Source of the DNA: Escherichia phage Ecwhy_1
Direction: 5' to 3' (one strand)
DNA: 64,000 bases
Sequence record: MH791411.1
Shown here: piece after piece, positions 1-26,900 of the stretch
How positions within the stretch are numbered: the stretch's first letter is position 1
Layout of the letters: every line of letters begins with the position of its first letter
Translations under genes and position numbers: made by a program
Notes under the pieces: model-generated
Databases searched by the model: none
Told to the model about the DNA's origin: nothing
Seen by the model: only the letters and a program-made list of their open reading frames with translations

Positions 1-1473
1 AATGGAAATGAAGTTCTTGTTATGATTAACATCAAATATACTGCTGAAACCTGGGAATTTGATGCGAATGGCGTTGAATATGTGTTCGTTGGTGGTGATA
101 AAGTTCGTTTTTACTTCGTTTCTTCTAAAAAGATAACTGATATTAGTACTGGTAGTGTTCAAAGTGACAAAATTGAAATTTTATCATCAAATACCACAAG
201 CAATAGTAATGCTGGGTTGACAAGTAACATAGATTTCCAAATTTATGACACAATTCAACAAGAAAACGGGTATCTTGATGGTTCTCGTGTGGTTATCACC
301 TCTGAAAACGTTGATAGTAATGGAATCCCACTAGAACCTAATCAATTCAGAGAAATTGTACCAAATTGGACTGGTGAAGATTCAGTTAAATATGGTGGTA
401 TATTGGTTTTCCAAGAAAACGATGATTTCACTATATCAGTACTGTCATTACCGAATGATACTTTCACTATTCTTGATTCTTCATGGGCTTATACAATGGA
501 TCAAGCACTTGCAGAAACTAATGCGTATAAGAGAAGTGAATTTGTTCGCAACAATGCTATTCGATCAACAACATTGAGTGGTATCTATAGTAAAGGTTCA
601 GGCTTTATAGTTGGCTTTAACTATGATGGTAAATATTACTTCATTGAACAAACTGTTGGTAATAATAATGACCGTTTAAACCAATTAATTGAGAACTTGA
701 CCTATTCTGATGATACAACTGCTGCAACTCCTGAACTTGCGTTTTATCGTGCTATTGTTAATATCGGTACTAATGCTGATGTTAACCAAAAGTTAGATTA
801 TTATGGTTATAAAGATGTAACTTCACAATATACCGTAAAAACGAATGCAAGAACTGGTATTGATTTCCACTGGAAACATTATGCACCAGATGATAATCGC
901 ATTGACCCAAGTAGAACAAACTTGATTGACATGTATGTATTAACCAATTCATACAAAACTGAAGTTGATGTATGGTTGAAGAATGGAACACAAGGTAATA
1001 TGCCTAAACCGCCAACATCTGTTGAATTGAAAGACATTTTTAAAGAAGTTGAACAAAAAATAGTCATCAGTGACAGTATTATTTGGCATAGTGCAGAATA
1101 TCTACCATTATTTGGTGCGAGTGCTGCTGAAGATTATAAAGCAGATTTTAAAGTCGTCAAATTGCCTAACAGTACAATGAGTGATGATGAAATTCGTCAA
1201 AATGTCGTAGCACTAACTAACGAGTATTTTAATGTTGACAACTGGGATTTTGGTGAAAGTTTCTATTACACAGACTTGTGTACATACATTCATTCCCAAT
1301 TAGGACGACATATTAGTACTATTGTTATCGTAGCTCAAAACCCTAACTCTAAATTTGGCTCACTATTTGAAATCCCTTCACGTTCTGACCAGATTTTCTT
1401 AAGTACTGCATCAGTTGATAACGTACAGATAGTCAATTCCTTGGCTAAGAGTAACATTAACATTGGTTCATAA
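1..1473 (+). CDS. Virion structural protein, C-terminal part (5' end lies outside window)
   Basis: Reading frame is open from nt 1 (no stop before the first Met at 22); heads the plus-strand structural block; followed by a UUCG-loop terminator. No recognisable catalytic motif. Confidence 0.5.
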   Translation, partial: NGNEVLVMINIKYTAETWEFDANGVEYVFVGGDKVRFYFVSSKKITDISTGSVQSDKIEILSSNTTSNSNAGLTSNIDFQIYDTIQQENGYLDGSRVVITSENVDSNGIPLEPNQFREIVPNWTGEDSVKYGGILVFQENDDFTISVLSLPNDTFTILDSSWAYTMDQALAETNAYKRSEFVRNNAIRSTTLSGIYSKGSGFIVGFNYDGKYYFIEQTVGNNNDRLNQLIENLTYSDDTTAATPELAFYRAIVNIGTNADVNQKLDYYGYKDVTSQYTVKTNARTGIDFHWKHYAPDDNRIDPSRTNLIDMYVLTNSYKTEVDVWLKNGTQGNMPKPPTSVELKDIFKEVEQKIVISDSIIWHSAEYLPLFGASAAEDYKADFKVVKLPNSTMSDDEIRQNVVALTNEYFNVDNWDFGESFYYTDLCTYIHSQLGRHISTIVIVAQNPNSKFGSLFEIPSRSDQIFLSTASVDNVQIVNSLAKSNINIGS

Positions 1474-1481
1474 CACATTAA

Positions 1482-1506
1482 GGCGTTCTTCGGAACGTCT
1501 TTTTTA
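1482..1506 (+). terminator. Rho-independent terminator
   Basis: GGCGTTC-UUCG-GAACGTC hairpin (7 bp incl. one G-U, UUCG tetraloop) followed by TTTTTT, directly after the stop at 1473. Confidence 0.6.
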
Positions 1507-1510
1507 TATC

Positions 1511-1517
1511 ATAAATA
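1511..1517 (+). promoter_or_regulatory. Late-promoter-like ATAAATA motif upstream of giant ORF
   Basis: cATAAATAaat lies 36 nt upstream of the ATG at 1554; same motif at similar spacing before several other structural genes. Confidence 0.4.
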
Positions 1518-1553
1518 AATCAAATGAATGAACGAATTATATGGAGTCCAAAA

Positions 1554-4500
1554 ATGACTAATAATTTTAAGTTTCAACCTACACAGATGGCTGAAGCAGT
1601 ACAGAAGAAGCTTTTCATAAAAAGATTGCCTGAGTGGATGCAAGGCTTAGAAGATATTCAGAAAGTCAGTGATGATGTTATCCAACAATGGTTTAATCCG
1701 GCTGAAAACGAATTAGTTGACGGCTACATTGGTGACATGGGTTCTCCGGCAGCAGCAGGGAACATCTTCTTACACGAGTCAACAGTCGCACGTCAACTAT
1801 ATCAGTTGTCCACTGCGTATGTCTCAAGAAATGATGACTCCAGCATTCGTTCAATTCAATTTTATGATGATCTAGTTGGCTATATGAATCATTACGGTGC
1901 ACTAACCGAAAATGAAAGCCGTTTGTTTAATGGTAAGTTCTATTCATGGACCCCACCAATTAACCCAAATAAAATGAACAACTACAGTTCATACCTATGG
2001 GATTCCAAGAATAGCTATAATATCACAACTCCAGATTATATTGTAATGGAACGTGGTGCAGAAAATGGTAACACTTGGTCACTACAAAACTTCTGGTACA
2101 CATTAGGTGAAACTTTAGAAGATGGTACTATCCTAACTGAAGAACTAATGCAAGATTCCCGTTTTGTTCGTGCTCGTGCACCAATTATCGAATACAATAA
2201 AAATATCGAACTAATGAACTACGGTACTAAATTCCGTGGGACAGTTGATTTGTTCTCTGATATTATTAAACCTGAAGATATCGTACAAAAAGATATTAAC
2301 AGCGGTATACGTATTGATGGTATTATTCCACAAGATGGTATGCGTATTCTTTTCACCAGTATTGGTAACAATGGTGAAAACAACCGAATTTATAAAGTAT
2401 ATGTTAAACGTATGCAAGATGGAACACGTGTGTATGGTCTAGCATTAGATCCAGACGAAGAATCTGAAAGCCGTCCGAGTGGTGAACCACAAGATGGTGA
2501 CGTAGTTCTTATTATCAAAGGTAATGAATTTGGTAACAGTTCCATGTATTGGGACGGTTCTCATTGGATTCAAGCACAGTCTAAAACTTCTGTGAACGTA
2601 TTTCCACAATTCCAATTGTATGACCGTAATGGTGTTAAACTAAACAACACTACTACCTATCCATCAAGTACTTTTACTGGTTCTTCACTATTTGGTTTTA
2701 AAATTAACTATAATTATGCAACTGATAGCGTTTATGGTTATAATATTGAACTAGGTGATTACAATTATTACACATATGAGAATTTCCTACAATCAACTCG
2801 TTATACTTACGAGCATTTGGGTGTGGAAGTTGAAATTGATGGACTATATTACTATAACGTAATTGGTGAAGGTAATACAATGAACCTAGAAACTGATTGG
2901 GTTCGTAGTACTGAATACTCCAAACAATATGTTAAACAAACTCCACAGGTTGAACGTACAGTAATGTTCCGCGTGTTCAGTACTGTTTATGACATGGAAA
3001 GTTTCAAAGACCCAGTTGAAGGAATGTATGCTTATGTAATTGAAGTTGACAGAACTTATCAATATTACAAAGCAGAACGTGAAACATATCTTGATTGGCA
3101 TGTTATCGTTGGTGATGGGGTACAAAGCGTTAAGTACAATCATACATTTGAATTGGCACAAAAAGTACTAGATAATTCTGATGATATTATCGAACTAGTT
3201 GTTGATGGTGTGGAAATAAAAGAATACACCAAAACTGTAGTTAATAATCAAGTACAAAGTATTACAATTGATAGCTCTGTTGATTTGGATGAAGATTCTG
3301 TTGTACAAATCAGAACTTATAGTAGCACTATCACTCCTAATAAAGAGTTGGGTGCATATGAAGTTCCAATTAACCTACAAAATAACCCATATAATTCAAA
3401 CATTGAATACATCAACCAAGGTGATTACACCCTGCACTTCCAAGATATTATTCAAAAGAATATTACATCTGGTTCTGCTGATGACTTTAACAATTACGAA
3501 GAACGTTTGGCTGCTGGTTTGGTTAATAATGGTGTAGGCACTAAAATTATTCAAAACGAAGCGTCCATGTTACCACTAATGGCACATACCGCTAATGAAG
3601 ATATTGATTTGTTTGAATCAATCATGTTTATGCAAGCAGAATACTTCCGCTTCATTAACAAGTTCAACACTCAAATGCTTCGTTTGTATGAAGAAGACCC
3701 AAGTGCTTTTCTTGGTAATAGTGCATCAAACATCGTAGATGCGATTCTAACAGCTATTAATATGGGACGTGATAGTACATTCCCATTCTACTATGACAAC
3801 GTTGCAAGCACTGCTGGGTTTATTCGTGCATTTGTCCCACCAACTCCACAGTTCTTGGGTATTTTGCAAGCTTATACACCACAAAAAGCAACATTCTTAA
3901 CTGCTGGTAGTAAATCTAGCTGTTATAATATCAGTCATACTGGTATTATTTCAAAAGCATACCGTGTTATCAATGGTGTTGATAAAATGGATGACGTAGT
4001 TTTTGAATTGGAAAATCGTATCTTTAATAGTATTGATCTTACTTTCAAGGATATTGATTATAAACCAGTACTAAACAGTGAAGACCTATTCCCAACTCCA
4101 TATTTCACTGGTACTGATTATAGTGCAGAAGAAAAGAAAACTCTATTACTACGTGGTTACATTAACTTCACAGCAACCAATGGCATTAGTAACAGTACTC
4201 ATGATTATGATGCAAATAACTGGAGAACTTGGAACTATACTGGTAGTTATTATGTTGTTGATGGTCAACGTACTGAAATTCCTGCTCGTGGTTCATGGCG
4301 TGCAATCTATACTGACCAATATGGCACATATCGTCCAGCAACCCATCCGTGGGAAATGATGGGCTTCTCTCAACGTCCTACTTGGTGGAACCAAGAATAC
4401 GAACCAACCGCAGTTCAAGTTGGTGAACGTGAGGGTGATGTTGTTTATGTGTATGAAGCACTAGTAATGAATGAAAATGGTGATTTGGTCCCAAGTGGAT

Positions 4501-7500
4501 TGTGGGATATTGATGGTACTATCGGTGATAGCAGTACTGGTACTATTTTGTCAGGTGAACGCCGTGGTCAATATGACAAATACAAGCGTTTCGGTGTACA
4601 GCCATTTAAAATCACTAAGACTGGCGAGAAAACCAGTACTGGTATTGATATTTGTGAAGTTGAGTATATTGCACCTGAAGTTTTAGGTCTTGTTAGTGGT
4701 AATTTAGATCATCGTGCAGAACCGTGGTCTTATGGTGACATGGGTGACATGGAATTCACTTACATGAACACTGCGATGTTTGCTTATGACCAAATGCTTC
4801 TTCTATACAAAGCAAAACCAGCACAGTTTGCAAACTATTACTGGGATACCCGTAATGATAACCTTAAACCAGTTTATACTGATGGTTCACAGTTCCTTTA
4901 TGGTGAAACTCGTAAGCGTCTAAACTTTGACAGTACTACATTAGTACATGGTGAGAAAAACACCCGTACTATCGGTTATCAAATGTTTGTTAGTGACTAT
5001 TTGATGTATCAGAATAAGAACATTACCACCAAATACGGTGACGTTGTTCGTTCTTCTTATGTCAATGTCGCTCACAAAATTGGTGGCTTTACTAAAGCAG
5101 ACCAATTGACATTCACTGCTAAATCTTTCGGTTTGATTTCACAAGAAAACCAAACTATCGGTCTAGTTCGTTCCAATAACATTCGCGATGAGCAAATGAG
5201 TGCAGTAAAAATTACTTGGAATGGTAGTGCATATCAAATTGATGGTTATGATTTAGTTGGTGCTAAATTTAAATATAAAATTCCAGTTAAAAATGGAAGA
5301 AAAGTAACTCTTAAATTGGAAGACAGAACTGTTGTTCATTACAATGAATGGAAATCTGAAGGTACATTAGAATATGGTAAAATATTCAATACATACCAAG
5401 AAGTTTATACTTTCATTTGTGGATATGGTGAATATCTAAAAGAACATGGCTGGATTTTTGAAGATGTAAATGATAGTGGTACTCAACAAGACTGGACAAC
5501 TATTGCTAAAGACTTTGTTATTTGGAGTCAGAATAATTTAAGTACTGGTGAGTTCATCTCCTGCACTCCAAGTGCAGCTAATGCTAAATTTGGTGCGGAT
5601 TTTGGTTCAGTTCAATCTGTTACACAGAATAGTGGTGGTGTTTGGTCACTACTCGATGATGAAAACCAAGGTATCCGTCAATATGAAATCGAAACTTCGC
5701 GTATCGGTAACGTATTCACAGTGAGAACTACATCTGAATCACAAAAACGTATGGCGTTGATTCGTTTGAGCCTAAGTTCATATGAACACGCAGTTGTTTT
5801 TGATGATAAAACTATCTTTGGTGATTACATTTACCAACCAACTTATGGTGCTATTCAAGAATTGATTAAAATGTATGGTTACATTACTGGGTCATGGACT
5901 GGTCGCCTACAAGCACCTGGTTTCATTATCCTAGAAGCAGGAACTTTACCATCATTTGAAAAATTAGTAACTGATTTTGAATTATATTATAATAGTGAAA
6001 CTCCTGTGAGTGATGTTCAGCTTCAAGAGTTATCAAATCACTTGATTGGCTATCAAACTCGTGATTATCTACAACGTATGATTAGTAGTGATGTTAGTCG
6101 TGTTGATTTCTATAAAGGATTCATTCATGACAAAGGTACTAACCAAGTAATGGAAAAAGTACTACGCGTTTCTAAATCTTACGACACTGATGAATATAAA
6201 GCACTTCAGGAATGGGCATTTAAGATTGGTACTTATGGTAATATCAATGGTAAGAAAAATCTACAATTTAAACTAATCAATGACCAATTTAAACAACAAC
6301 CACAGATGGTTTCGTTTGATGTTAATGCTACATCAAATGGTACTGGTAATGGTATTGTTTATTACGGTGAACAAGGGGTTGACTCACGCTGGATTACTCG
6401 TCCAAATGGTAAGTTTTCATTCCCAATGCGTAGTGGAAGAAGTGAGAATATCCAACTTCCAGACATTGGTCCTGTAACACTAGATGAAATTTCATACGTT
6501 ACTAAAGATTTCAGTACTGCATATAATGATCGTATCAATTATATGAATAACAGTGGTGAAATCCCAGATTCTGTATGGATGTTTAAAGATGGTAATGATT
6601 TGTGGAATATTTTCGAACTAGTAGACACTGAAGTTGAGATGCTCTCTATCGTTCCAATTGAAAATACCGATGTATATGCAGAACAATTCTGTAAAGTAAC
6701 TCTAAGTGATGATATCCCACTAAATGATGGTGATTATTATTACTTTGTTGATGAAACTAACTTTATGCCAGATACATTGACTATAGAAAGTCAATATTAT
6801 ACTGCGGGTAATGACCCTAGAGTTATGGTAGTTCCGTTTGACACTTCAATCACTATTGACTTCACTGATCCTGATACTCGCCCACGCTTGTATCGTTATG
6901 TTTCACGATTCAGTACTGAAGAGATGCGTCAGGAATACATTGACAGAAAATATAGTTTTAAAGCTCCACAAAGTACTTTGTTTGACCGCCCAACCACATA
7001 TGATGAGCGTACTAACATTACTGCGTTGTACCTAAACGTGTTTGACCCAATCAACGGTGTTATTCCTGGTGCAGCGATGCAGAACGTTACCTACACATCT
7101 CCAGTTGACCCAGCACAATACAACAGCAATGGTGAATTGATTCAAGCATGGGGTGCTGATAAAGTTGGTCAGGTTTGGTGGAACACCAGCACTGCTTTCT
7201 ACTTAGATTACACTCGTGCAATCTATGATGCTGATGGTAATGTGGATGTTGATGCAACAAATGAATATAAACGTTATAACTGGGGCAGATTGCTACCGCA
7301 CAGTACTGTTGATGTTCTTGAATGGGTATGTTCACCAGTTGAACCATATAACTGGGACAAATACTGCAAAGACGTTGCTAACAAAAATAAAAACAACACT
7401 ATGTACCTACCAAGCGGAACCGCATTGGAAGATAATTATAGTACGTTCTTAGAATATGATAGCACAACTGATACTTATGTTACAAAATACTATTTCTGGG

Positions 7501-10500
7501 TTCGTGATACAATCTATGTACCACCATTGCATTCCAGAACTAAATCTTGTACTGATATTGCTCGTATTATTAAAGAACCAGCACAGCTTAACATTCCTTG
7601 GTTTGCACCAATCAATGAAAGCTCGTTCATTCTAAGTAATATGCAATTTGAAGTCAACGATGACACAAGTATTTTAACTGTTTCTTATTACATGGATAAT
7701 ACTGAAGTTATTAAACATGACCAGTATCAATTATGTAAAGAAGGTGATAGCTATAACTTCAATCCATCAATCTGGACTTCTATGTGGAATTCTATGATTG
7801 GTCAAGAAACTACTGAATCAGGAACTGTTATTGATTTACTATATCCTTTAGTACCAAACGGTTTAGGTTCTAATAAGACTTGGTTCCAAGATGTAATTGA
7901 AGCTCGTAGAAACTTTGTAGAAAGTGCAAATAACTATTATCGCTCACAGAATATAACAACTAACACTGTTCTAATGGACGAAGTGTTTAATGTTAAAACT
8001 ACTGAAGTTAACCCGAATGAAGTATCATATCGTGTACTAACTTACAATAGTGAATTAGTCATTGCACCTGAAAGTGACAAGTTCAAAGAAAACGACGCAG
8101 TACTAGTAAGTACTAGTGGTGTATTACCTAACCCACTATCAACTAGCTCTGTATATTTTGTGCATATTGATGCTAATGGTTATATTCATCTAATGAATAG
8201 TCCATCAAGTGCTGGTAGTGTGGTTACCATTACATTGGAAAACCGTGGTGAAGGTCAACAGAAAATGATTAAACAATCAGACTATGTTGAAGCACTAGGA
8301 ACTTCATTGGACATGACCCAGTACTGGTCACTAGCAGATTGGTATGATATTGGCTACGATAAAAATACTGCATATACACAAGAATCCAGCCTAGAAGATG
8401 CAAACACTAAGAACTATCAAGTTGGTGACATTATCAGAATTACAGATGTTGATGGCATCTGGACATTGTACATTAAAGCACAATCACGTGATTCAGTTTA
8501 CTGGAAAGCAATTGGTCGTGAAAATAGTACAGTTGAATTGAATGATATGTTATACGCTGACTATACAGTTCGTGATGCTAATGGTTCGTTGAGTAATCGT
8601 GAGATTAACGTTCGTAAAGCACTAGCTTTATTGAAGAACTCATTCGACTTACATCAGAGTGAAATTGTGTTTGATATGGTTAAGTATGTTCACGTAGAAC
8701 AAAGCGTTGTTGATTGGGTATTCAAAACATCTTACATTTATATTGTAGGTTTAGAACAATCATTAGTACAGAACTATTCCAACGACAACTTGATTAATCA
8801 AATCGTTGAGTACTTTGAAGAAGTTAAACCATATAGAACTAAGATTCGTTCCCAGATTGAACAGAAAACTTCAGATGATGATTTAATTAAAGGTTTGTGT
8901 AATGATTTAGATCCTAATGGCTATATATTTGCAGATGGGACTTGGGTTAAAACGGAAAAAGACATTTGGGATTATGAATATGCTCAATTCAATGAGGTAA
9001 CTCAACGTTGGGAGCAAGTTGGTGAATTGCCAAGTGATTTCGTAACACCTAATCGCCGTTTCCAAGAAATTGATGTTATCATGCACTACGACAACACTCA
9101 ATGTAAACCAAATGATAATTTGGCAAGTGTTGATGTATTGGAAGAAGTGAATAAGAAATATCAATCTAATGCACAAGATGTTGTTAGTAATTTTGAATTA
9201 CAACGTTACAAATATACATTCCCAGAATACAGTGATGAAGATTTCGACCTATTGGTTGCTTATCAGATGCAATTGTATTACCCAGAATTGAACGTAACTC
9301 TAGGGATTGCTTACGGTGTTAACCAATGGTATGCAGACCATGCAGATGATTTGGTAGCAACCGCAGAATTCACAGAAACGTTGAATCGTGTATATAAAGA
9401 ATCAACACAAAATGAAATGTTTAATGACGTAAATCATTATGTTCAGTATAACACACTCTCTAACCGTTTGAAATTGTACACAGGTGCAGATGATGAAGTA
9501 ATTCATGATGAGGTTGGATGTGGATTTAGTGGGTTAACCTATGATGATAATCCAAGCACCAGACTACCGTTTGGTTATGCATCCAGTACTGATTATAACT
9601 TTGGTTACTTTGAAGTTAGTAGTGAGTTGTATAAAAAGTATGTTTCTTTAATTAAAGAAAACAATACTACTGCAACTGATGATGAAGTTAGAATTATACT
9701 TGAAGTTGAATATGGTGTTTATTCATATCGCCATGTAGATGAAGATGGAAATCAACGATTCTACAATGACGCAATTCATGTATTGTCTGGTATGCGTGGT
9801 TTGTATGACAAAGATGCTACCGACCATTATGAAAAGGCTGAAGAAATACTAAGTAGAATGCCTATTGATATTCATGCATTTACTATGATGCCACGAAAAT
9901 ATGTTTATGTTAATGTTAATGGTGTATACGAGAGTATCCCAGATGACCAAAGCATTGATGATTTCATGGAAGACAAATTCATAACTGACGGTCAACTAGT
10001 TCAATTGGCAGAAATAAATCTTGATGACTTACCTCTTGATAGAAATAACCCAATGTACAGTGATTATCAGCACATCCTAGATAGCATCACCGATGCTAAG
10101 TACTACGATGATATGAATGCATTTGATAACCTAGCACTTGAATCACAAACTTCCGAGTTAAAATGGGAAGTTGAAGGTGACGAAGTAGATCCGTACATAA
10201 TCGACATTTCTGATATTAACCCATCAGGAAGAAAGATTGGTCAGATTCGCTTCACAGTTGATGGTTATGGATTCAATAGTGTTTCACTAGTTCAATTGAG
10301 AGACAATAGTAGATATAAAACTGAAGGTATGGTTATCATCAACCCTTATAAAACAACAGAAGCAATTGTTAGTATTCCTTCTTACGCTAAGATTGAAAAT
10401 GATATTAGTAAATCATACAGTAAGTATGATGAAAAATACTTCTATAAAATTAAATCAATTGTTAGTGATACAGAAGCTGAAGTAATTGACAATACCCTAT

Positions 10501-11525
10501 CTGATGGTGATAAGGTTATGATATTCACAACTGATGGTGAAGATTATGTGAGATACCAAAACAATGCATGGGAAACCATCTTGAGTGTATCAAAAATCAA
10601 AACTGACACCACACCAACCTTGTACACAGTAAGAAACACTGCGAACGGAACTGTAGAACTACTAGATAGTACTGGAGTTGTACTTCGTTATGATAACATC
10701 ACTAAACAACAACAGAATGAACCAGCAATACCTCTAGCATTGAACATCGTTCGTATTAGAACCTTTGCTGATCCAGAATTCTTGGTTGATGGTGTTAAGT
10801 TGTATGAAACAAATAGAAACTATGCTATCGACGCAATGAACTATGAAGTATTCTACGACACAACACTATACGGTGGTTCTTATAATGATGGAATTACACC
10901 AGATGACGTTGATGTTTGGGTAGTGTCTAACGAGATATTTGAAGTTGATGGTGTTACCATTGATAACGGATATAACTTACCAATTACTGGTGCAGGTGTT
11001 CTTAGTGAGTTAGTGAGAACCAAAATGACTGATAGTGTGGAAATTAACGTGTTCGAGTATGATGTTGGTATTATTCAACCAGTACTGAATACTGAAGGGG
11101 TATGGGAATATGCATATCCACTAGTTAGTGATACATATATTGGTGTAGTTGGTGGAACCGTAACTAACATTACTGCTATCAGTGAAGAAAATACTACTTA
11201 TGTTTCACAACCAGATTCAGTTAGTCCATATAGTGTTACTAATAATGTTCTATCTGGTGCTGGTGCAAGTATGAATGATATTATTTCTCTTGGTTTTGAA
11301 AAAGTTGAAGTACGTTTTGCAAATAACTTACTCCGTGGGGTAATGTATAGTGCAGAACACGACTTTAAAGAGAATGTGACATATTCATTTAATGGCTTGA
11401 ACTTAGGTAAAGTTAATTTACTAAAACGTTATAGTGTTAACAGTTATCCAATCGAACTATCTGTTTACTCCGATAGTTTGCAAATAAGTGGTACTGACAT
11501 TAAAAATCTATTAGAAGTTAAATAA
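1554..11525 (+). CDS. Giant virion-associated protein (~3,323 aa), function unknown; putative tail/baseplate structural protein
   Basis: Uninterrupted 10 kb ORF. ATG at 1554 has GGAG 7 nt upstream; the track's upstream ATG at 1524 lacks an RBS. Sits in the late structural block and ends at a strong bidirectional terminator. Confidence 0.7.
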   Translation: MTNNFKFQPTQMAEAVQKKLFIKRLPEWMQGLEDIQKVSDDVIQQWFNPAENELVDGYIGDMGSPAAAGNIFLHESTVARQLYQLSTAYVSRNDDSSIRSIQFYDDLVGYMNHYGALTENESRLFNGKFYSWTPPINPNKMNNYSSYLWDSKNSYNITTPDYIVMERGAENGNTWSLQNFWYTLGETLEDGTILTEELMQDSRFVRARAPIIEYNKNIELMNYGTKFRGTVDLFSDIIKPEDIVQKDINSGIRIDGIIPQDGMRILFTSIGNNGENNRIYKVYVKRMQDGTRVYGLALDPDEESESRPSGEPQDGDVVLIIKGNEFGNSSMYWDGSHWIQAQSKTSVNVFPQFQLYDRNGVKLNNTTTYPSSTFTGSSLFGFKINYNYATDSVYGYNIELGDYNYYTYENFLQSTRYTYEHLGVEVEIDGLYYYNVIGEGNTMNLETDWVRSTEYSKQYVKQTPQVERTVMFRVFSTVYDMESFKDPVEGMYAYVIEVDRTYQYYKAERETYLDWHVIVGDGVQSVKYNHTFELAQKVLDNSDDIIELVVDGVEIKEYTKTVVNNQVQSITIDSSVDLDEDSVVQIRTYSSTITPNKELGAYEVPINLQNNPYNSNIEYINQGDYTLHFQDIIQKNITSGSADDFNNYEERLAAGLVNNGVGTKIIQNEASMLPLMAHTANEDIDLFESIMFMQAEYFRFINKFNTQMLRLYEEDPSAFLGNSASNIVDAILTAINMGRDSTFPFYYDNVASTAGFIRAFVPPTPQFLGILQAYTPQKATFLTAGSKSSCYNISHTGIISKAYRVINGVDKMDDVVFELENRIFNSIDLTFKDIDYKPVLNSEDLFPTPYFTGTDYSAEEKKTLLLRGYINFTATNGISNSTHDYDANNWRTWNYTGSYYVVDGQRTEIPARGSWRAIYTDQYGTYRPATHPWEMMGFSQRPTWWNQEYEPTAVQVGEREGDVVYVYEALVMNENGDLVPSGLWDIDGTIGDSSTGTILSGERRGQYDKYKRFGVQPFKITKTGEKTSTGIDICEVEYIAPEVLGLVSGNLDHRAEPWSYGDMGDMEFTYMNTAMFAYDQMLLLYKAKPAQFANYYWDTRNDNLKPVYTDGSQFLYGETRKRLNFDSTTLVHGEKNTRTIGYQMFVSDYLMYQNKNITTKYGDVVRSSYVNVAHKIGGFTKADQLTFTAKSFGLISQENQTIGLVRSNNIRDEQMSAVKITWNGSAYQIDGYDLVGAKFKYKIPVKNGRKVTLKLEDRTVVHYNEWKSEGTLEYGKIFNTYQEVYTFICGYGEYLKEHGWIFEDVNDSGTQQDWTTIAKDFVIWSQNNLSTGEFISCTPSAANAKFGADFGSVQSVTQNSGGVWSLLDDENQGIRQYEIETSRIGNVFTVRTTSESQKRMALIRLSLSSYEHAVVFDDKTIFGDYIYQPTYGAIQELIKMYGYITGSWTGRLQAPGFIILEAGTLPSFEKLVTDFELYYNSETPVSDVQLQELSNHLIGYQTRDYLQRMISSDVSRVDFYKGFIHDKGTNQVMEKVLRVSKSYDTDEYKALQEWAFKIGTYGNINGKKNLQFKLINDQFKQQPQMVSFDVNATSNGTGNGIVYYGEQGVDSRWITRPNGKFSFPMRSGRSENIQLPDIGPVTLDEISYVTKDFSTAYNDRINYMNNSGEIPDSVWMFKDGNDLWNIFELVDTEVEMLSIVPIENTDVYAEQFCKVTLSDDIPLNDGDYYYFVDETNFMPDTLTIESQYYTAGNDPRVMVVPFDTSITIDFTDPDTRPRLYRYVSRFSTEEMRQEYIDRKYSFKAPQSTLFDRPTTYDERTNITALYLNVFDPINGVIPGAAMQNVTYTSPVDPAQYNSNGELIQAWGADKVGQVWWNTSTAFYLDYTRAIYDADGNVDVDATNEYKRYNWGRLLPHSTVDVLEWVCSPVEPYNWDKYCKDVANKNKNNTMYLPSGTALEDNYSTFLEYDSTTDTYVTKYYFWVRDTIYVPPLHSRTKSCTDIARIIKEPAQLNIPWFAPINESSFILSNMQFEVNDDTSILTVSYYMDNTEVIKHDQYQLCKEGDSYNFNPSIWTSMWNSMIGQETTESGTVIDLLYPLVPNGLGSNKTWFQDVIEARRNFVESANNYYRSQNITTNTVLMDEVFNVKTTEVNPNEVSYRVLTYNSELVIAPESDKFKENDAVLVSTSGVLPNPLSTSSVYFVHIDANGYIHLMNSPSSAGSVVTITLENRGEGQQKMIKQSDYVEALGTSLDMTQYWSLADWYDIGYDKNTAYTQESSLEDANTKNYQVGDIIRITDVDGIWTLYIKAQSRDSVYWKAIGRENSTVELNDMLYADYTVRDANGSLSNREINVRKALALLKNSFDLHQSEIVFDMVKYVHVEQSVVDWVFKTSYIYIVGLEQSLVQNYSNDNLINQIVEYFEEVKPYRTKIRSQIEQKTSDDDLIKGLCNDLDPNGYIFADGTWVKTEKDIWDYEYAQFNEVTQRWEQVGELPSDFVTPNRRFQEIDVIMHYDNTQCKPNDNLASVDVLEEVNKKYQSNAQDVVSNFELQRYKYTFPEYSDEDFDLLVAYQMQLYYPELNVTLGIAYGVNQWYADHADDLVATAEFTETLNRVYKESTQNEMFNDVNHYVQYNTLSNRLKLYTGADDEVIHDEVGCGFSGLTYDDNPSTRLPFGYASSTDYNFGYFEVSSELYKKYVSLIKENNTTATDDEVRIILEVEYGVYSYRHVDEDGNQRFYNDAIHVLSGMRGLYDKDATDHYEKAEEILSRMPIDIHAFTMMPRKYVYVNVNGVYESIPDDQSIDDFMEDKFITDGQLVQLAEINLDDLPLDRNNPMYSDYQHILDSITDAKYYDDMNAFDNLALESQTSELKWEVEGDEVDPYIIDISDINPSGRKIGQIRFTVDGYGFNSVSLVQLRDNSRYKTEGMVIINPYKTTEAIVSIPSYAKIENDISKSYSKYDEKYFYKIKSIVSDTEAEVIDNTLSDGDKVMIFTTDGEDYVRYQNNAWETILSVSKIKTDTTPTLYTVRNTANGTVELLDSTGVVLRYDNITKQQQNEPAIPLALNIVRIRTFADPEFLVDGVKLYETNRNYAIDAMNYEVFYDTTLYGGSYNDGITPDDVDVWVVSNEIFEVDGVTIDNGYNLPITGAGVLSELVRTKMTDSVEINVFEYDVGIIQPVLNTEGVWEYAYPLVSDTYIGVVGGTVTNITAISEENTTYVSQPDSVSPYSVTNNVLSGAGASMNDIISLGFEKVEVRFANNLLRGVMYSAEHDFKENVTYSFNGLNLGKVNLLKRYSVNSYPIELSVYSDSLQISGTDIKNLLEVK

Positions 11526-11526
11526 C

Positions 11527-11560
11527 AAAAAGGAGAGCAAATGCTCTCCTTTTCTTTTTT
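11527..11560. terminator. Bidirectional rho-independent terminator
   Basis: AAAAAGGAGAGC-AAAT-GCTCTCCTTTTCTTTTTT: perfect 8-bp GC-rich stem flanked by an A-tract and a T-tract; closes the giant ORF (+) and the ClpA-like gene (-). Confidence 0.75.
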
Positions 11561-20783: not shown

Positions 20784-22925
20784 ATGGCAGTTTTTTCCAA
20801 TTTAGAAGGGACCATGATGCCAACATTCAAGTTGGGTAAACGTGGTGCTTCTATTAATTTTGTAAACGATTCTGTCGCAATCAAAGACTTTTTAGGCGAA
20901 ACGTTCCTACCTGTTAAGGTGGGAACTCCTAATGACGATGATTCCGCAGTAAACGTTAGGTATCTTGAAGATAACCCAAATGCTTTATTTGGCGTACTTC
21001 CACCAACAAATGACATTGGTAAAAATAACAACACTTATTTTCAAGTTGATTCTGAGGGTATTGTTGATATCTTTGCAAAAACAAATGATGTTTGGGTAAA
21101 ATCATTATACATTAATAAAAATGTCCTTTCCAGTGTTAACGGTGCTGATTATATCGGACTTATTACTGGAGGAACACTTCAACAGGCACAGTTTTACATA
21201 ACTCCAGAAGAGTTTGGTGCAAAAGGTGATGGCATCACTGATGACACGGCGGCGGTTAACGCATGTGCAGTTTATGCTAAAGAACACAAAATCCAAATTC
21301 AAGCTGGTGGTAATTATCGTATCAGAACTGCTGTTTATTTGAATGATATTCAATGGTTTGGTGGTACAATCACTGGTAACGGTGGCACAATGGTATCGGT
21401 ACTGAATAGTACAATCCAACAAGCAACATTAACAGGATGTTATTTAAAATTCTTTGGTGGTAATGGTAAATTTTATTTTAATAAATTTATTAATATTACA
21501 AGTACTGCTGCATTTCTAATGCAAGGTATGACTGAATCAGGTACTATCGACTTCTGCTTTAATGAAATGACACAATGTAAGTACGGTGTTCTTCAGCAAG
21601 GCACTGGTGAGAAAATGACCGTTGGGCGTTATTCATACAACCACATCCATGATATATATGGTGATGCAATTGAATTGAACGTAGTCAACTCACATTACCC
21701 AGACGGATTTGTAATAGAAGGTAACTTGATTGAAAACGTAGATGGTACAAATGCACCAATTCCTCTTTCAAACTGGGGTATTGGTATCGGTGTTGCAGGT
21801 TCTGGTCCTTATGATGTGAATGCTGATGATTCACAATATGTAAAAAAATTCGTTATAAAAAATAACCGCTTGTACAATGTCCGTCAATGTATTCACGTTG
21901 AGTTGGGTAAAGACTTTAAAATTCTCAATAATGAAGTTTATCCATCAACGTTGGTATCAATTGGTACTGGTTTGACAACCGCTGGTGTAATTACTTATGG
22001 TTCTGTTGATTTTATTATTGATGGCCTATCTGGGCATCTATTAAATGATCCATCAGTAACTAACCGTATGGTTTCTATTAACTGGGGCGTAACATCTGGT
22101 AAATTTGCTGGTCCTCCACGAAACTTTAAATTATGTAATCTCCACATTCCTGAGTCGTCTATTATTGTGTATACTTCAGGCTCTGATAATTGGCTAAATA
22201 CTACTGAACTTTCTAATATTACATGTAGTAGAATTCAATGGCGTGGATTGCCGTCATCTTCCAAGTTTAATAATATCAGTACTAAAGAACTTGATGTTAT
22301 TGGACAACACCTTGCAACTGAAGGTGAAGGAGGGGGCTTATATACTCGCTCTAAATATACATATACCAACTGGACTAATTGTGTTGTTCAAGATGATTGT
22401 AACATATCAAAATATAGTTTCTCAAGAATGTATGTTGACCGTATTGACCAATCATCTAATAACTTTAAAGTAACCACTGCAATTGATGGAACGGGTCATC
22501 GTGGACCTGTAGTAATACCTGTAGTTGAACAGTATTACGTGCCTTATGATGTTTTTCCTGGTGGGAGATATTTCCCAGCAGGAACAATTATCCATAAACA
22601 ATCAGGTGGAAAATTTATTGTTACAGTAGGTGGTTCTTTCTTTGGTCGATATGACACAATTAGACAAACAGTTGCAGGACAAACTTATATCGAAGCATTG
22701 GGTGTATCATGGGGTGATAATCAATATGCTAAAGCTGCTGGAACCGAAATCCTAATCACAGGAGCAGGGGAAAATGGCGAAGATTTAAAAACATATATCA
22801 CTAGAGCAGTTTATGTTGTTAATAATGCGTATCGTATCGATATTGCCGATCCGATTGTTACTGCTACCGCAGCAGGGGCATTATTGAAAGCTGCTCAACC
22901 AATAACATATATCACCCTATCTTAA
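20784..22925 (+). CDS. Tailspike/depolymerase with pectate-lyase-like beta-helix domain
   Basis: Motif FGAKGDGITDDTAAVNACAVYA typical of the pectate-lyase/polygalacturonase-fold superfamily used by phage capsule depolymerases; the N-terminal ~40 aa are shared with the next gene. Confidence 0.7.
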   Translation: MAVFSNLEGTMMPTFKLGKRGASINFVNDSVAIKDFLGETFLPVKVGTPNDDDSAVNVRYLEDNPNALFGVLPPTNDIGKNNNTYFQVDSEGIVDIFAKTNDVWVKSLYINKNVLSSVNGADYIGLITGGTLQQAQFYITPEEFGAKGDGITDDTAAVNACAVYAKEHKIQIQAGGNYRIRTAVYLNDIQWFGGTITGNGGTMVSVLNSTIQQATLTGCYLKFFGGNGKFYFNKFINITSTAAFLMQGMTESGTIDFCFNEMTQCKYGVLQQGTGEKMTVGRYSYNHIHDIYGDAIELNVVNSHYPDGFVIEGNLIENVDGTNAPIPLSNWGIGIGVAGSGPYDVNADDSQYVKKFVIKNNRLYNVRQCIHVELGKDFKILNNEVYPSTLVSIGTGLTTAGVITYGSVDFIIDGLSGHLLNDPSVTNRMVSINWGVTSGKFAGPPRNFKLCNLHIPESSIIVYTSGSDNWLNTTELSNITCSRIQWRGLPSSSKFNNISTKELDVIGQHLATEGEGGGLYTRSKYTYTNWTNCVVQDDCNISKYSFSRMYVDRIDQSSNNFKVTTAIDGTGHRGPVVIPVVEQYYVPYDVFPGGRYFPAGTIIHKQSGGKFIVTVGGSFFGRYDTIRQTVAGQTYIEALGVSWGDNQYAKAAGTEILITGAGENGEDLKTYITRAVYVVNNAYRIDIADPIVTATAAGALLKAAQPITYITLS

Positions 22926-23957: not shown

Positions 23958-26900
23958 ATGTACTCGATTAAAACAGATCTCGATATAACTGGTGGTGCAA
24001 CGGTTGCTAAAGATCTTCTTGTGAAAGGCGATGCAGTATTCAATAAAAATCTAACAGTTAATGGAACTGTAACTTTTGCTGACGCTGTATTCACTGCAAT
24101 TGAAGCAGAAACTGTAGACATTTCATCTACACTAGATGTTGCTGGTAAAGCATCATTGAATGGTGGAATTGAAGTTCATGGTAATTCCGTAATTGGTAAT
24201 TTGCCTGTTGGTTCTGATACTGCAACGATTAATTCTAATGCACAATTCCAAAGCCCAGTATCAATGGCAGGTAATCTAACACAAACCGCTGGCACTGCTG
24301 TACTAAAAGATACCCAAGTGGCATCAATGGATGTTCTTGGGACTTCTTCATTTAAAGGTAATATTACTGCTGAAACTGGCACTACCGCAGCATTTGACAA
24401 AATAACTGCAACTGATGCAACATTCACAAACACTGCAACTACTGATATCACATCAACTGGAACTGCAAACTTTAAAGATGTGAATATTTCCGGTACACTA
24501 GGTGGAACATTTAGTCTATCTGATGTTAATGCAACAACTCTAACTGTTTCTGGTTTAACCAGTCTACAAGGTGGTGTTACATTAGGTTCCAACATTACTG
24601 GTGTGAATAGTAGTGCAAACTTCCGTGATATTAAAATTGGTTCCAATGCTGCAAACACTAACTACCGTTTGAGCTTTAACTATTCTGCTCCAAGTCTTCG
24701 TCCAACTGTAATTCTACAGAACGAAATCCAATCAGAATTGATGTCTCCAGCTACCCTAAGTGTATTGAAAACTGCATCTTTTGGTGATTCGTCACTATCC
24801 ACTTTTGGTATTACTGGTAATGGTCTAAACAAACTAGATTACCTAACAGTATCTGGTAACTCTGTTCAAGATCCAACAACTCCACTATTACAAGTAACTT
24901 CAGGTAAAACTAAAGTTCATGATTTCGAAGTAACAGGAACTGCAACTATTCCTAACATTGAAAGTACTGGTACTGCTAATTTTAATAACATCAACGTATC
25001 TGGTACACTCGGTGGTACTTTCAGTCTTGATGATATTGAAGCAAACACACTAACTGTATCCGGTTTAACTAGCCTTGTTGGTGGTGTAACTTTAGGTGCT
25101 GATATTTCCGGTGCTAATAGTACTGCTAATTTTAAAGCAGTAAGTTTAGGACAAAACGCCGCCGATGCTAACGTTAAGTATGGTTTTGCTTATTCTGCCC
25201 CTGGTGCTCGCCCAACTGTAATTCTACAAAATGAAATTCAGTCTGAGCTAGTATCTCCAGCAGTACTTAATGTACAAAAAACTGCAACCTTTGGTGATGC
25301 ATCTCTTGCAACCTATGGTATCACAGGTAACGGTCTAAACAAACTAGATTATCTATCTATTACTGGTAATGGTACACAAAGTCCAGCTACCCCACAACTA
25401 CAAGTTGCTGGTAAATCAGTACTAAATGATGTTGAATTCACTGGTACTGTAACTGGTCTAACTGTTGATGTGAGTGGACAAGATCTAACTCCTAAATCAG
25501 TAGATGCTGCTGAAGCAATCAAAGGTCAAACCCTTGAATCAGTTGGTCAAACCACAGTAGGAACTAACCTACAAGTTGGTGGAACTGCTAATGTTGTTGG
25601 TGCACTAACTGGTACTGCTGCTACCTTCACTGGTGATGTAAGTGCTGCTAAAGGTACTTTCAGTGGTGATGTTAGCGTTACTGGTCAAACTGTAACTGTA
25701 CGTGATTTAGTAGTAACTGGTACAACTACTGGTGTAACTGCCCAAGCTGATGTTGATGGTCTTGATATCGCCCCAAATAAAGTTGATGTTACAACAACAC
25801 TATCTGTTGCTGGGGACACTACTTTAGCTGGCCTAACTGCTAGTTCAGTAACCAGTACTGGTGATGTTACTGGTGCGTCTGTATCTGGTAATACAGTAAC
25901 TGCGGCTGGGGCACTATCTGGTGGTTCTCTTGCAGTAACTGGTGCTGGTTCTATGGCTTCACTAACTGTTCCAAGTATTACTGGTGACACTACTTTTGCT
26001 AATAACGTAACTATTACTGGAACACTAACTCCGAGTAGTATAGATTTAAGCACTACTGATGTAAGTGCTGCTTCTTTAACAACTACTGGTAACGTAACTG
26101 TTGGTGGTTCTCTTGCAGTAACTGGTGCTATTGATTTGTCTGCTGCTGATGTAGTAACAAAATCAGTTAGTGCAACTAACCCAAGTACATTTGGTGTAAT
26201 TAATGCATCTTCTGTTGCCGCAACTGGTGACGTTTCAGGTGGCACACTAACTACTACTGGTGCAGCGAAAGTAGGAACACTAACTAGTACTGGTGTAGTA
26301 TCTGGTTCGCGTTTGTCTTCTGGTACTGCAACAATCACAACTTCTGTAACAGTTCCAACTTTACAAGCTGAAGCTGCTGGTGCTGGTACACTAAATCTAG
26401 CAAGTAATGTTGTCGCGGCAAAAGATCTAACTGTCACTGGTGTATTCAAACCTGAAGGTGGTCTTGATCTAACAACTGTTGATATTACTGCAAACTCACT
26501 AACTACTACTGCTGATGTTAATGTTGGTGGAAACTTAGTAGTTGATGGTACTTTTGACCTAAGTGCTGCTGATGTGTCTGTGAAATCTCTTGCAAGTGCA
26601 GAGACAATTACAAGTGCTGGTGTTATTACCGTTACCGATTCAACCAATACTAGTTCGTTACCTAAAATTACTTCAACTGATGCAACACTCTTTACAGTAA
26701 ATGCAGGTACTATTAATGCAACTGGTAACAGTGTACTACAAAGTGTATCAGCTACTCAAGTAACTGCTAATAGTGCTGAATTTTCTGGTGGTGGCCTTGG
26801 TCTTCAAGTTGATAATGATGCAAACGTTGGTGGTGCATTATCTGTTGGTGGCATTGCAACTGTTGGTTCTTTAACAACAACTGCTGCTTCTCTTAATATT

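What the first reader, a model, noticed from the sequence alone, without database searches (positions are those of the whole stretch)
1554..11525. Giant ~3,320-codon single ORF at the head of the structural module
An uninterrupted 10 kb ORF is exceptional for a phage gene. It sits between a structural ORF and baseplate/fibre-like genes, has a late-type ATAAATA motif 36 nt upstream, and ends at a strong terminator. I saw no obvious internal tandem repeats or catalytic motifs, so it is probably a multi-domain virion protein such as a baseplate-fibre scaffold or an ejected protein.
Basis: seen in the sequence. Interest (0 to 1): 0.7.

Follow-up and report, generated by a model that had tools for sequence, protein, structure and literature searches.

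The report
Giant baseplate protein of jumbo phages
The 10-kb ORF is a real gene for a 380-kDa virion protein of a 121Q/RaK2-type jumbo coliphage; it sits where simpler phages have the fibre-holding baseplate wedge protein (T4 gp7 / P2 gpI), yet resembles nothing with a known structure.

Summary
Observation confirmed. Window 1554-11525 (+) is one uninterrupted ORF (3,323 aa, 380.5 kDa, pI 4.5). It has an SD, an ATAAATA late-promoter-like motif 36 nt upstream and a bidirectional terminator. It is under strong purifying selection along its whole length (dN/dS 0.083 vs PBECO4). The window is an Asteriusvirus jumbo phage, 99.8% identical to vB_Ec-M-J.

The gene is already annotated ("virion structural protein", PHROG 10938). 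Published mass spectrometry found its orthologues in virions (phAPEC6 gp245, CBB_236), but no function has been assigned.

What I add:
- It is the last gene of a T4-like baseplate operon (gp53-like, gp5/VgrG-like hub, gp25, gp6-like, giant). This order holds in 5 of 5 relatives at 24-37% identity.
- aa 1-2450 form a conserved core found in 88 cultured phages and about 1,000 50%-identity clusters. aa 2451-3323 are clade-specific but track phage phylogeny, not host.

Best reading (about 0.55): a giant wedge/periphery scaffold in the gp7 slot that carries the branched fibres. It is a functional analogue, not a demonstrable homologue. Moderately interesting.

The parts
1..1473 (+). 3' part (last 490 codons) of the ~1,153-aa gp6-like baseplate wedge gene; it runs off the left end of the window
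   Evidence: PHROG 10646 'baseplate wedge subunit', E=1e-215. It equals EcMJ_318 of vB_Ec-M-J. The family N-terminus aligns co-linearly with T4 gp6 aa 22-110 (hhalign E=0.0011). Distant orthologues carry PF27647.
1480..1508 (+). Terminator-like hairpin plus T-run between the gp6-like gene and the giant ORF
   Evidence: 9-bp stem AAGGCGTTC/GAACGTCTT followed by TTTTATAT. Function is inferred.
1511..1517 (+). ATAAATA late-promoter-like motif, 36 nt upstream of the start codon
   Evidence: The motif is depleted in the window (10 found against 25.3 expected). Eight of the 10 copies lie 27-60 nt upstream of an SD+ATG on the same strand. The phage encodes a gp55-like late sigma factor.
1543..1546 (+). 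Shine-Dalgarno GGAG
   Evidence: Read directly from the sequence.
1554..11525 (+). Giant ORF: 3,323 aa, 380.5 kDa, pI 4.5; virion structural protein
   Evidence: PHROG 10938 matched end to end. 99.8% identical to EcMJ_317. dN/dS 0.083. Orthologues found in virions by MS.
1554..2000 (+). N-terminal unit, aa 1-149. aa 8-47 form short helices of low AlphaFold confidence but hold near-invariant residues (L25, P26, Q30, F47). An insertion hot-spot follows at aa 150-160.
   Evidence: It is proposed, by inference only, to be the contact with the gp6-like pair, by analogy with XM1 gp17 aa 1-48 (PMC10457771).
1554..8903 (+). Conserved core, aa 1-2450, shared by all relatives down to 24% identity
   Evidence: BLASTP coverage map over 120 homologues. 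The deep search found 1,032 representatives. AlphaFold models: aa 1-1200 pLDDT 85.2, pTM 0.79; aa 1201-2400 pLDDT 77.1.
5784..6197 (+). aa 1411-1548: lies within the most conserved, indel-free stretch of the protein, but AlphaFold cannot fold it alone (pLDDT < 50, partly helical)
   Evidence: 71% and 51% identity, 0 gaps, 0 insertions for aa 1401-1500. The reading as a partner-dependent interface is inference.
8904..11522 (+). C-terminal clade-specific module, aa 2451-3323
   Evidence: Absent or unalignable in all 48 distant homologues. Present once per genome, full length, in 71 enterobacterial and Xanthomonas jumbo phages. Identity falls 99.8 -> 77 -> 49 -> 38% following phage phylogeny, not host. 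Not modelled.
11527..11558 (.). Bidirectional intrinsic terminator shared with the converging gene 11559..13871
   Evidence: 12-bp stem GAAAAGGAGAGC/GCTCTCCTTTTT with T-runs on both strands.
18417..19025 (-). 202-aa protein (PHROG 11259), the conserved neighbour of the giant gene in distant relatives and a likely partner
   Evidence: It follows the giant gene directly in 5 of 5 distant loci and is 41-50% identical to this window ORF. By size and position it corresponds to phAPEC6 gp251c (21.95 kDa), which was detected in virions.

Best explanation
The ORF encodes a 380-kDa structural protein of the tail baseplate. It occupies the gene slot that T4 gp7, P2 gpI, XM1 gp17 and Pam3 gp23 fill in other contractile-tailed phages. 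In those phages this protein joins two gp6-type subunits in each of the six wedges, lies at the wedge periphery and carries the fibre attachment sites.

Proposed mechanism:
1. The gene is transcribed late from its own ATAAATA promoter. The motif is shown; its function is inferred.
2. One copy joins each gp6-like pair, giving six per virion, through a segment that only folds against a partner. The candidates are aa 8-47 or the highly conserved aa 1411-1548. This step is inferred.
3. The roughly 2,400-aa conserved core builds the outer baseplate. It would replace T4 gp7's outer domains and gp8-gp11, for which these phages have no detectable homologues. This step is inferred.
4. The clade-specific C-terminal ~870 aa and small beta-domains provide the docking platform for the anchor domain of the primary branched tail fibre. 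They would relay fibre binding to the gp6/gp25 ring that triggers sheath contraction. This step is inferred.

The protein is a positional and probably functional analogue of gp7. It is not a demonstrable homologue.
For: Real, constrained gene.

Virion component: MS of orthologues phAPEC6 gp245 and CBB_236.

Baseplate operon: gp53-like, Phage_base_V+DUF2345+lysozyme hub, lysozyme, GPW_gp25 and the gp6-like gene lie directly upstream.

Conserved synteny: gp25 -> gp6-like (PF27647) -> giant in 5 of 5 loci at 24-37% identity. The giant start overlaps the gp6-like stop by 1-8 nt in 4 of them, and fibre genes (Gp34_trimer, Peptidase_S74, Collar, pectate-lyase type) lie within ~1-7 kb downstream in four of the five loci (not L008). 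PA5oct's gp128, one of its two largest proteins, neighbours gp129 'baseplate wedge'.

Canonical order: gp25 -> gp6 -> gp7 -> fibre, with the gp7-type protein holding the fibres, in T4, P2, XM1 and Pam3.

No other gp7/8/9/10/11 homologue is annotated in the module (CBB table).

The marine relatives examined (P0096, P0091) carry CBM_5_12 and FG-GAP insertions, which suggests surface exposure.

Peptide yield relative to the gp6-like protein is consistent with lower copy number: coverage 7.6% against 24.2% in phAPEC6 and 7.7% against 12.5% in CBB.

The RaK2 fibre anchor (gp528 aa 1-105) still lacks an identified baseplate partner.

Against: The predicted N-terminal helices are short and of low confidence. 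They are not a clear helix-turn-helix.

A 243-aa virion protein at the head of the operon (PHROG 12050) could be the true minimal gp7-type core. That would leave the giant protein as an accessory.

Location in the baseplate, copy number and fibre binding have not been observed directly for any family member. aa 2401-3323 were not modelled.
Confidence: 0.55

Rival explanations
1. It is baseplate-associated but is not the wedge-core partner of gp6. On this reading it is an accessory outer-baseplate protein bolted onto a conventional small wedge, for example an envelope-contact or secondary-adhesion shield. The gp7-type core would be supplied by another small protein, such as the 243-aa PHROG 12050 product.
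For: All gp7 and gpI homology and fold tests were negative. A conserved 240-300-aa virion protein opens the operon in all loci, and XM1's gp7 orthologue is only 242 aa. The marine relatives examined (P0096, P0091) carry CBM_5_12 and FG-GAP insertions, which suggest contact with the cell surface.
Against: The 243-aa protein also shows no similarity to gpI or gp7, and it sits before gp53 and the hub gene rather than after gp6. The overlap of the giant start with the gp6-like stop in 4 of 5 distant loci suggests co-translation and a stoichiometric partnership.
Confidence: 0.22
2. It is itself a fibre. It would be either the trunk of the six ramified baseplate fibres or the ~120-nm 'hairs' seen on CBB and phAPEC6 tails, formed by a long chain of about 25-30 small domains.
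Against: aa 1-1200 fold as one compact body with pTM 0.79, not as beads on a string. There are no repeats and no trimeric beta-helix or coiled-coil signature. Immunogold labelling places nine other proteins, gp526-534, along the RaK2 fibres. The CBB authors reason that the hair genes should be absent from hairless GAP32, yet the giant gene is present in GAP32, RaK2 and all other relatives. The C-terminus follows phage phylogeny, not host.
Confidence: 0.08
3. It is an internal or ejected protein. On this reading it is packaged in the head or tail lumen and injected, like N4 vRNAP or T7 gp16, to bridge the envelope or act in the cell.
For: Its size class matches N4 vRNAP at about 3,500 aa (from general knowledge). 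It is present in virions.
Against: No polymerase or other enzymatic Pfam or NCBIfam domain was found. There is no hydrophobic or TM-like segment; the maximum 19-residue Kyte-Doolittle mean is 1.12. The gene is embedded in and translationally coupled to baseplate wedge genes across the family. The domains are beta-rich and adhesin-like, with CBM insertions in relatives.
Confidence: 0.06
4. It is an assembly or annotation artefact: several genes fused by sequencing errors.
For: One database record (CMSTMSU, MH494197) splits the region into 11 ORFs and differs in length, 9,957 against 9,972 nt.
Against: The frame is intact over its full length in at least 34 independent genomes and in more than 100 metagenomic homologues of 2,800-5,600 aa. 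dN/dS is uniformly low. A 381.9-kDa product is listed in the phAPEC6 virion proteome. CMSTMSU is the outlier.
Confidence: 0.01

Closest known systems
T4 gp7 / P2 gpI / Mu gp48 / XM1 gp17 / Pam3 gp23 / T6SS TssG (baseplate wedge protein of the (gp6)2-gp7 heterotrimer)
   Same: The gene position is the same: directly after the gp25-like and gp6-like genes and before fibre genes. It is a virion protein. It has a conserved inner part and a variable outer part, and is expected to hold the fibres. T4 gp7 is likewise the largest T4 baseplate protein.
   Different: It is 3.2 times longer than T4 gp7 and 19 times longer than gpI. No sequence, profile or fold similarity was detected (43, 51, 73). The gp7 Pfam domains PF21428, PF21456 and PF21427 are absent. 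No clear N-terminal helix-turn-helix is predicted.
PHROG 10938 / 'virion structural protein' of RaK2-like jumbo phages (121Q gp582, PBECO4 gp538, phAPEC6 gp245, CBB_236, probably PA5oct gp128)
   Same: It is a member: the profile match runs end to end (aa 1-3320 against profile positions 1-3324), and it is 82-99.8% identical to Asteriusvirus orthologues.
   Different: Nothing differs. However, the family has no assigned function or location beyond presence in virions.
CBA120 TSP4 N-terminal region (anchor plus T4 gp10-like XD domains) and podophage fibre N-terminal adaptor domains (T7 gp17 N-terminus)
   Different: The matches cover about 90 of 1,200 residues and are below significance. hhalign against T4 gp10 is negative. 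The giant protein is not a trimeric tailspike.
Large peripheral baseplate proteins of phiKZ (PHIKZ087, PHIKZ027) and other complex myophages
   Same: They share the concept of jumbo-phage baseplates enlarged by big lineage-specific peripheral proteins.

Membership tests
gp7/gpI/TssG-type baseplate wedge protein | Gene lies immediately downstream of the gp25-type and gp6-type wedge genes and upstream of fibre genes | tested here: met
   The window and vB_Ec-M-J show this order. So do 5 of 5 distant loci, with start/stop overlap in 4. Reference orders were taken from T4, P2, XM1 and Pam3.
gp7/gpI/TssG-type baseplate wedge protein | Sequence or profile homology to gp7 (Pfam PF21428/PF21456/PF21427) or to P2 gpI | tested here: not met
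   Pfam gave 0 hits at E<=1. BLASTP and phmmer found nothing. hhalign gave probability 0.14% against T4 gp7, 0.18% against the gp7 family profile and 0.1-0.2% against gpI.
gp7/gpI/TssG-type baseplate wedge protein | Fold similarity to gp7-type chains in solved baseplates | tested here: not met
gp7/gpI/TssG-type baseplate wedge protein | A helix-turn-helix that joins two gp6 N-termini in a six-helix core bundle | tested here: inconclusive
   aa 8-47 are predicted as short helices with pLDDT 30-68 that hold near-invariant residues. aa 1411-1548 are conserved, partly helical and cannot be folded alone. No multimer prediction was available.
gp7/gpI/TssG-type baseplate wedge protein | Located in the baseplate wedge at six copies per virion | not testable with these tools
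   Only virion presence is known, from MS of orthologues. Peptide coverage lower than for the gp6-like protein is compatible with this but not decisive.
PHROG 10938 giant virion structural protein (RaK2-like jumbo phages) | Full-length match to the family profile | tested here: met
   E=0, 5,479 bits, aa 1-3320 against profile positions 1-3324.
Trimeric tail fibre / tailspike receptor-binding protein | Trimeric beta-helix, coiled-coil or repeat architecture, and a distal domain that is exchanged with host range | tested here: not met
   There are no repeats. The monomer model is compact and globular with pTM 0.79. The C-terminal module occurs once per genome and follows phage phylogeny; E. coli and Salmonella phages share the same 77.3% variant.
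Giant ejected enzymes (N4 vRNAP type) | Polymerase or other catalytic domain; gene not in the tail module | tested here: not met
   No Pfam or NCBIfam domain was found. The gene lies inside the baseplate operon.
T4 gp10-like fibre-docking domain | Significant fold or profile match to gp10 / TSP4 XD domains | tested here: inconclusive

The most novel reading that the evidence does not exclude
A globally distributed supergroup of jumbo myophages (RaK2/121Q-like, PA5oct-like, Atu_ph07, many marine lineages) may build the outer baseplate from a single ~2,400-aa conserved chain of folds not yet seen in any solved structure. On this reading the chain would replace the whole multi-protein T4 periphery (gp7-gp11). 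It would also act as both the fibre-docking hub and the trigger relay, making this a distinct baseplate architecture rather than an elaboration of the T4 one.
Probability: 0.3. Interest if true: 0.65.

Novelty: new variant of a known kind. Interest (0 to 1): 0.5.

Why it matters
The baseplate decides when a contractile tail fires and what it binds. All atomic models so far share a small (gp6)2-gp7 wedge core with add-ons.

Here the gp7 slot is filled by a 380-kDa protein conserved across 88 cultured jumbo phages and about 1,000 metagenomic clusters. AlphaFold predicts it confidently, yet it has no structural neighbour in the PDB.

If it is the wedge and periphery scaffold, three things follow. 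It is the missing baseplate receptor for the anchor domains of the branched, multi-depolymerase fibre systems (RaK2, K64-1), which are being engineered for host-range design. It is about 2.3 MDa of unexplored virion mass per particle. It is also a useful marker gene for this jumbo-phage supergroup in metagenomes.

If it is merely an accessory, the finding remains a well-documented orphan structural family.

Tried and rejected
1. Direct homology to T4 baseplate proteins gp5, 6, 7, 8, 9, 10, 11, 12, 53 and wac by BLASTP and phmmer found nothing.

2. Pfam, NCBIfam and PDB-sequence searches with the single sequence and with a 26-member profile found nothing. The best hit was SufS at E=1.2, which is noise.

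4. hhalign of the family against T4 gp7 (single sequence and an 18-member profile), T4 gp10 and P2 gpI was negative in every case.

5. hhalign of the giant N-terminus against the gp6-like N-terminus, to test for a shared domain I as in XM1, was negative.

6. The 243-aa operon-head protein was tested as an alternative gp7 or gpI. This was negative and remains unresolved.

7. The search for homologous proteins with the C-terminal module alone returned no hits, although an identical protein is in the database. I treated this as a tool failure, not evidence, and replaced it with tblastn against phages.

8. The first alignments were too large for the tools, so AlphaFold ran on only 23-sequence alignments.

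10. I considered that P0055 and P0056 show a C-terminal module swap. I rejected this: they are full-length homologues with a ~130-aa insertion.

11. I considered that the CBM_5_12 and FG-GAP domains mark the variable C-terminus. I rejected this: they are insertions inside the core.
Full report
**1. The observation**

The window carries one uninterrupted + strand ORF, 1524..11525. GGAG sits at 1543-1546. The upstream ATG 1524 lies only 6 nt after the promoter-like motif and has no ribosome-binding site. All homologues, down to 22% identity in this segment, align from this methionine.

The product is 3,323 aa, 380.5 kDa, pI 4.5, with no hydrophobic segment. Tandem Repeats Finder and self-BLAST find no internal repeats.

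The ATAAATA motif lies at 1511-1517, 36 nt before the ATG. A 12-bp G+C-rich hairpin with T-runs on both strands lies at 11527-11558.

The ORF is intact over its full length in at least 34 independent phage genomes. Against the 82%-identical PBECO4 orthologue, dN/dS is 0.083 (dN 0.087, dS 1.05). It stays between 0.04 and 0.12 in every 300-codon block. The whole 10 kb is therefore one protein-coding gene under strong constraint, not a fused assembly. One record, CMSTMSU, splits it into 11 ORFs and differs in length, most likely through sequencing errors.

**2. What the window is**

The DNA is 99.8% identical to Escherichia phage vB_Ec-M-J (Asteriusvirus, 378 kb) and 82% identical to PBECO4, 121Q, G17 and phAPEC6. 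The gene is EcMJ_317, annotated "virion structural protein". It matches PHROG 10938 end to end.

Published virion proteomics found the orthologues in purified particles. phAPEC6 gp245 (381.88 kDa) gave 17 unique peptides and 7.6% coverage, and lies next to gp244 "baseplate wedge" (PMC7247149). CBB_236 gave 21 peptides and 7.7% coverage, and lies next to CBB_237, the gp6-like protein (PMC5259590).

None of the papers I read assigns it a function. The existence of the gene and its virion association are therefore already known.

**3. Genomic context**

In vB_Ec-M-J the genes directly upstream are, in order:
- a late sigma factor on the opposite strand;
- a 243-aa virion protein;
- a 104-aa gp53-like wedge protein;
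- a 751-aa virion protein;
- an 887-aa gp5/VgrG-like hub with lysozyme (Phage_base_V, DUF2345, Phage_lysozyme);
- a second lysozyme;
- a gp25-like protein (GPW_gp25);
- a 1,153-aa "baseplate wedge subunit";
- then the giant ORF.

The 1,153-aa protein is gp6-like. It matches PHROG 10646. Its N-terminus aligns co-linearly with T4 gp6 aa 22-110 (hhalign E=0.0011). The CBB paper reports BLAST E=3e-5 to KVP40 gp6. The window's first ORF (1..1473) is its C-terminal part.

This is the T4 order 53-5-...-6-7. It is also the order W-J-I-H of P2, gp15-16-17-18 of XM1 and gp21-22-23-24 of Pam3. In all of these the protein after the gp6-type gene is the gp7-type wedge subunit. That subunit sits at the wedge periphery and carries the fibre docking sites.

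Five distant relatives show the same arrangement of gp25 (PF04965) -> ~1,040-1,290-aa PF27647 protein -> giant gene. They are 24-37% identical and come from a Tara Oceans scaffold, three other metagenomes and Vibrio phage 2.275.O. The giant start overlaps the preceding stop by 1-8 nt in four of them. In four of the five loci (not L008), fibre-type genes lie ~1-7 kb downstream, after one or more small genes (Gp34_trimer, Peptidase_S74, Collar, pectate-lyase-like). In PA5oct, gp128, one of its two largest proteins, lies next to gp129 "baseplate wedge".

No separate gp7, gp8, gp9, gp10 or gp11 homologue is annotated in the module or listed for CBB.

**4. Anatomy of the protein**

A coverage map over 120 homologues shows that aa 1-2450 are shared by all 48 distant (<35% identity) relatives. 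aa 2451-3323 align only within the enterobacterial and Xanthomonas clade.

Within the core, indel hot-spots lie at about aa 150-300, 400-600 and 1700-1800. In the marine relatives examined (P0096, P0091), CBM_5_12 and FG-GAP domains are inserted inside the core, not at the end.

The C-terminal module occurs exactly once per genome, at full length, in 71 phage records. Its identity falls 99.8 -> 77 -> 70 -> 58 -> 49 (RaK2, K64-1) -> 42 (Erwinia) -> 40 (GAP32, CBB) -> 38% (Xanthomonas). This follows phage phylogeny. Salmonella and E. coli phages share the same 77.3% variant. It is therefore not a horizontally exchanged receptor-binding tip. It behaves like a scaffold that co-evolves with each clade's own fibre set.

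**5. Predicted structure**

AlphaFold2 with a 23-sequence alignment gave a confident model of aa 1-1200 (mean pLDDT 85.2, pTM 0.79), so this part is one compact multi-domain body. The model of aa 1201-2400 has confident domains but an undefined arrangement (pLDDT 77.1, pTM 0.47).

Two segments stand out because they are conserved but cannot be folded in isolation:
- aa 8-47 are short helices with pLDDT 30-68 that hold near-invariant L25, P26, Q30 and F47.
- aa 1411-1548 lie in the most conserved, indel-free stretch of the whole protein. aa 1401-1500 show 71% and 51% identity, with no gaps or insertions.

Such behaviour is typical of segments that fold against a partner. [quoted passage not shown]

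**6. Comparison with known structures and families**

Foldseek against the PDB found no hit at E <= 1e-3. The best was the N-terminal anchor/gp10-like region of CBA120 TSP4 (E=0.029, prob 0.84, 95 columns).

Sequence tests were equally negative:
- BLASTP and phmmer against ten T4 baseplate proteins.
- Pfam, including the three gp7 domain models carried by every gp7 relative.
- NCBIfam.
- A family profile against PDB sequences.
- hhalign against T4 gp7 (0.14%), an 18-member gp7 family profile (0.18%), gp10 (0.16%) and P2 gpI (0.1-0.2%).

Membership in the gp7 family is therefore not established. The defining homology features were tested and not met. Only the positional feature is met.

**7. 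Distribution**

The N-terminal 1,200 aa find 1,032 representatives (50%-identity clusters) at E <= 1e-3 and 599 at E <= 1e-30 among 1.84 billion proteins. Almost all of those listed are 2,000-6,281 aa long.

Among cultured phages the core occurs once per genome in 88 records. These cover Asteriusvirus, RaK2/K64-1, CBB/GAP32/Erwinia phages, Yersinia fHe-Yen9-04, Serratia BF, Salmonella Munch/7t3/SE_PL, Xanthomonas phages, Vibrio 2.275.O (42%), PA5oct-like Pseudomonas phages (30%), Agrobacterium Atu_ph07 (28%) and, partially, Ralstonia RsoM2USA.

The gene is thus a hallmark of the RaK2-like supergroup of distantly T4-related jumbo phages. The ORF is "exceptional" in general but ordinary for this lineage.

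**8. Mechanism proposed and its rivals**

*Best explanation (confidence 0.55).* The protein is a giant wedge and periphery scaffold occupying the gp7 slot, with one copy per gp6-like pair. It would build the outer baseplate and present docking sites for the branched fibre system.

Three points are shown:
- virion presence (literature);
- membership of the baseplate operon and its deep conservation;
- the split into a conserved core and a clade-specific tail.

Four points are inferred:
- the location in the wedge;
- the copy number of six;
- which segment contacts the gp6-like protein;
- fibre docking.

Supporting hints are these. The peptide coverage ratios to the gp6-like protein (3.2:1 and 1.6:1) bracket the 2:1 expected for (gp6)2-gp7. 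The only fold resemblances are to fibre-adaptor domains. The RaK2 study found that the whole ramified fibre hangs on a 105-aa anchor of gp528 whose baseplate partner is unknown.

*Rivals.*
- An accessory outer-baseplate protein, with the true core supplied by another small protein, for example the 243-aa PHROG 12050 product (0.22).
- A fibre trunk or the tail "hairs" (0.08). This is weakened by the compact model, the absence of repeats, the immunogold mapping of nine other proteins along the RaK2 fibres, and the gene's presence in phages reported without hairs.
- An ejected protein (0.06). It has no enzymatic or membrane features and lies in the wrong genomic neighbourhood.
- An artefact (0.01).

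**9. Novelty and verdict**

The gene and its virion association are known, so the raw finding is not new. Three things are new in this analysis:
- the assignment to the gp7 slot, with explicit negative homology tests;
- the core/tail architecture;
- the size of the family, and the fact that about 2,400 residues are confidently predicted yet have no structural neighbour.

I rate it a new variant of a known kind: a baseplate wedge/periphery protein realised by a non-homologous, or unrecognisably diverged, giant chain. Interest is 0.5. It is a good target for structural virology and relevant to engineering branched-fibre phages. It is not a categorically new system, and its mechanism rests on synteny rather than on direct evidence.

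Noticed in passing
window, whole; sites at + 1511, 19599, 35638 and - 54538, 51472, 47762, 47240, 19570: ATAAATA is strongly under-represented (10 copies against 25.3 +/- 5.6 expected). The T4 late consensus TATAAATA is absent altogether (0 against 7.0 expected). Eight of the 10 ATAAATA copies lie 27-60 nt upstream of an SD+ATG on the same strand, and the base before the motif is never T at those sites. This looks like the late promoter of this phage group: counter-selected elsewhere and read by the encoded gp55-like sigma factor.
   Followed up: partly
window 11559..13871 (-): The gene converging on the giant ORF is annotated 'ATP-dependent protease'. It is in fact a ClpA/ClpB-type double AAA+ unfoldase (AAA, AAA_lid_9, AAA_2, ClpB_D2-small), and no protease domain was seen. 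A homologue also lies about 5 kb from the giant gene in Vibrio phage 2.275.O (L007 26490-28706). It might be a chaperone for very large virion proteins.
   Followed up: partly
window 18417..19025 (-); L003 21654-22241, L004 23702-24310, L007 21388-21984, L008 22937-23662, L009 21060-21650: A ~200-aa protein (PHROG 11259, function unknown) directly follows the giant gene in 5 of 5 distant relatives. It is better conserved (41-50% identity) than the giant protein itself. In this phage it has been displaced 7 kb and inverted. By size and position it corresponds to phAPEC6 gp251c (21.95 kDa), which was detected in virions. It is a likely structural partner.
   Followed up: partly
window 5784..6197 (aa 1411-1548 of the giant protein): This segment lies in the most conserved and completely indel-free stretch of the protein, yet it is the one long region AlphaFold cannot fold (pLDDT 28-43, partly helical). 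It may be a hetero-oligomeric interface.
   Followed up: partly
window 20784..22925, 23958..28892 and 29042..34741 (+): The fibre and tailspike genes differ in structure from the otherwise 99.8%-identical vB_Ec-M-J. The 713-aa colanidase-like ORF is split into two genes there (EcMJ_308/307). The 1,644-aa fibre ORF corresponds to two genes (EcMJ_305/304). The next fibre gene has a different end (1,899 against 1,988 aa). These are either real variation in the adsorption apparatus or frameshift errors in one record.
   Followed up: no
window 15449..16792 (+): This gene is annotated 'tail sheath protein' in vB_Ec-M-J, but it matches PF16724 (T4 gp15 tail sheath stabiliser, E=5e-22). The real sheath gene is the 887-aa ORF at 51818..54481 (-).
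   Followed up: partly
L001 1430-2158 (vB_Ec-M-J EcMJ_324; just upstream of the window) and its orthologues L003 334-1107, L007 1712-2431, L008 830-1726: A 240-300-aa virion protein (PHROG 12050) opens the baseplate operon in all lineages and has 37 invariant residues (for example the GxPPP motif). Its role is unknown. It is the main alternative candidate for a minimal gp7-type wedge core.
   Followed up: partly
MH494197 (Escherichia phage CMSTMSU) 309951-319907: This record annotates the giant gene as 11 small hypothetical proteins and is 15 nt shorter over the region. It is probably a frameshift-ridden assembly, which warns against using it as a reference.
   Followed up: no
L008 26547-28607; L003 1-199: Intein-type domains (Hint/Hom_end_hint; Intein_splicing/LAGLIDADG) occur in structural-module genes near the giant gene in two metagenomic relatives.
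   Followed up: no
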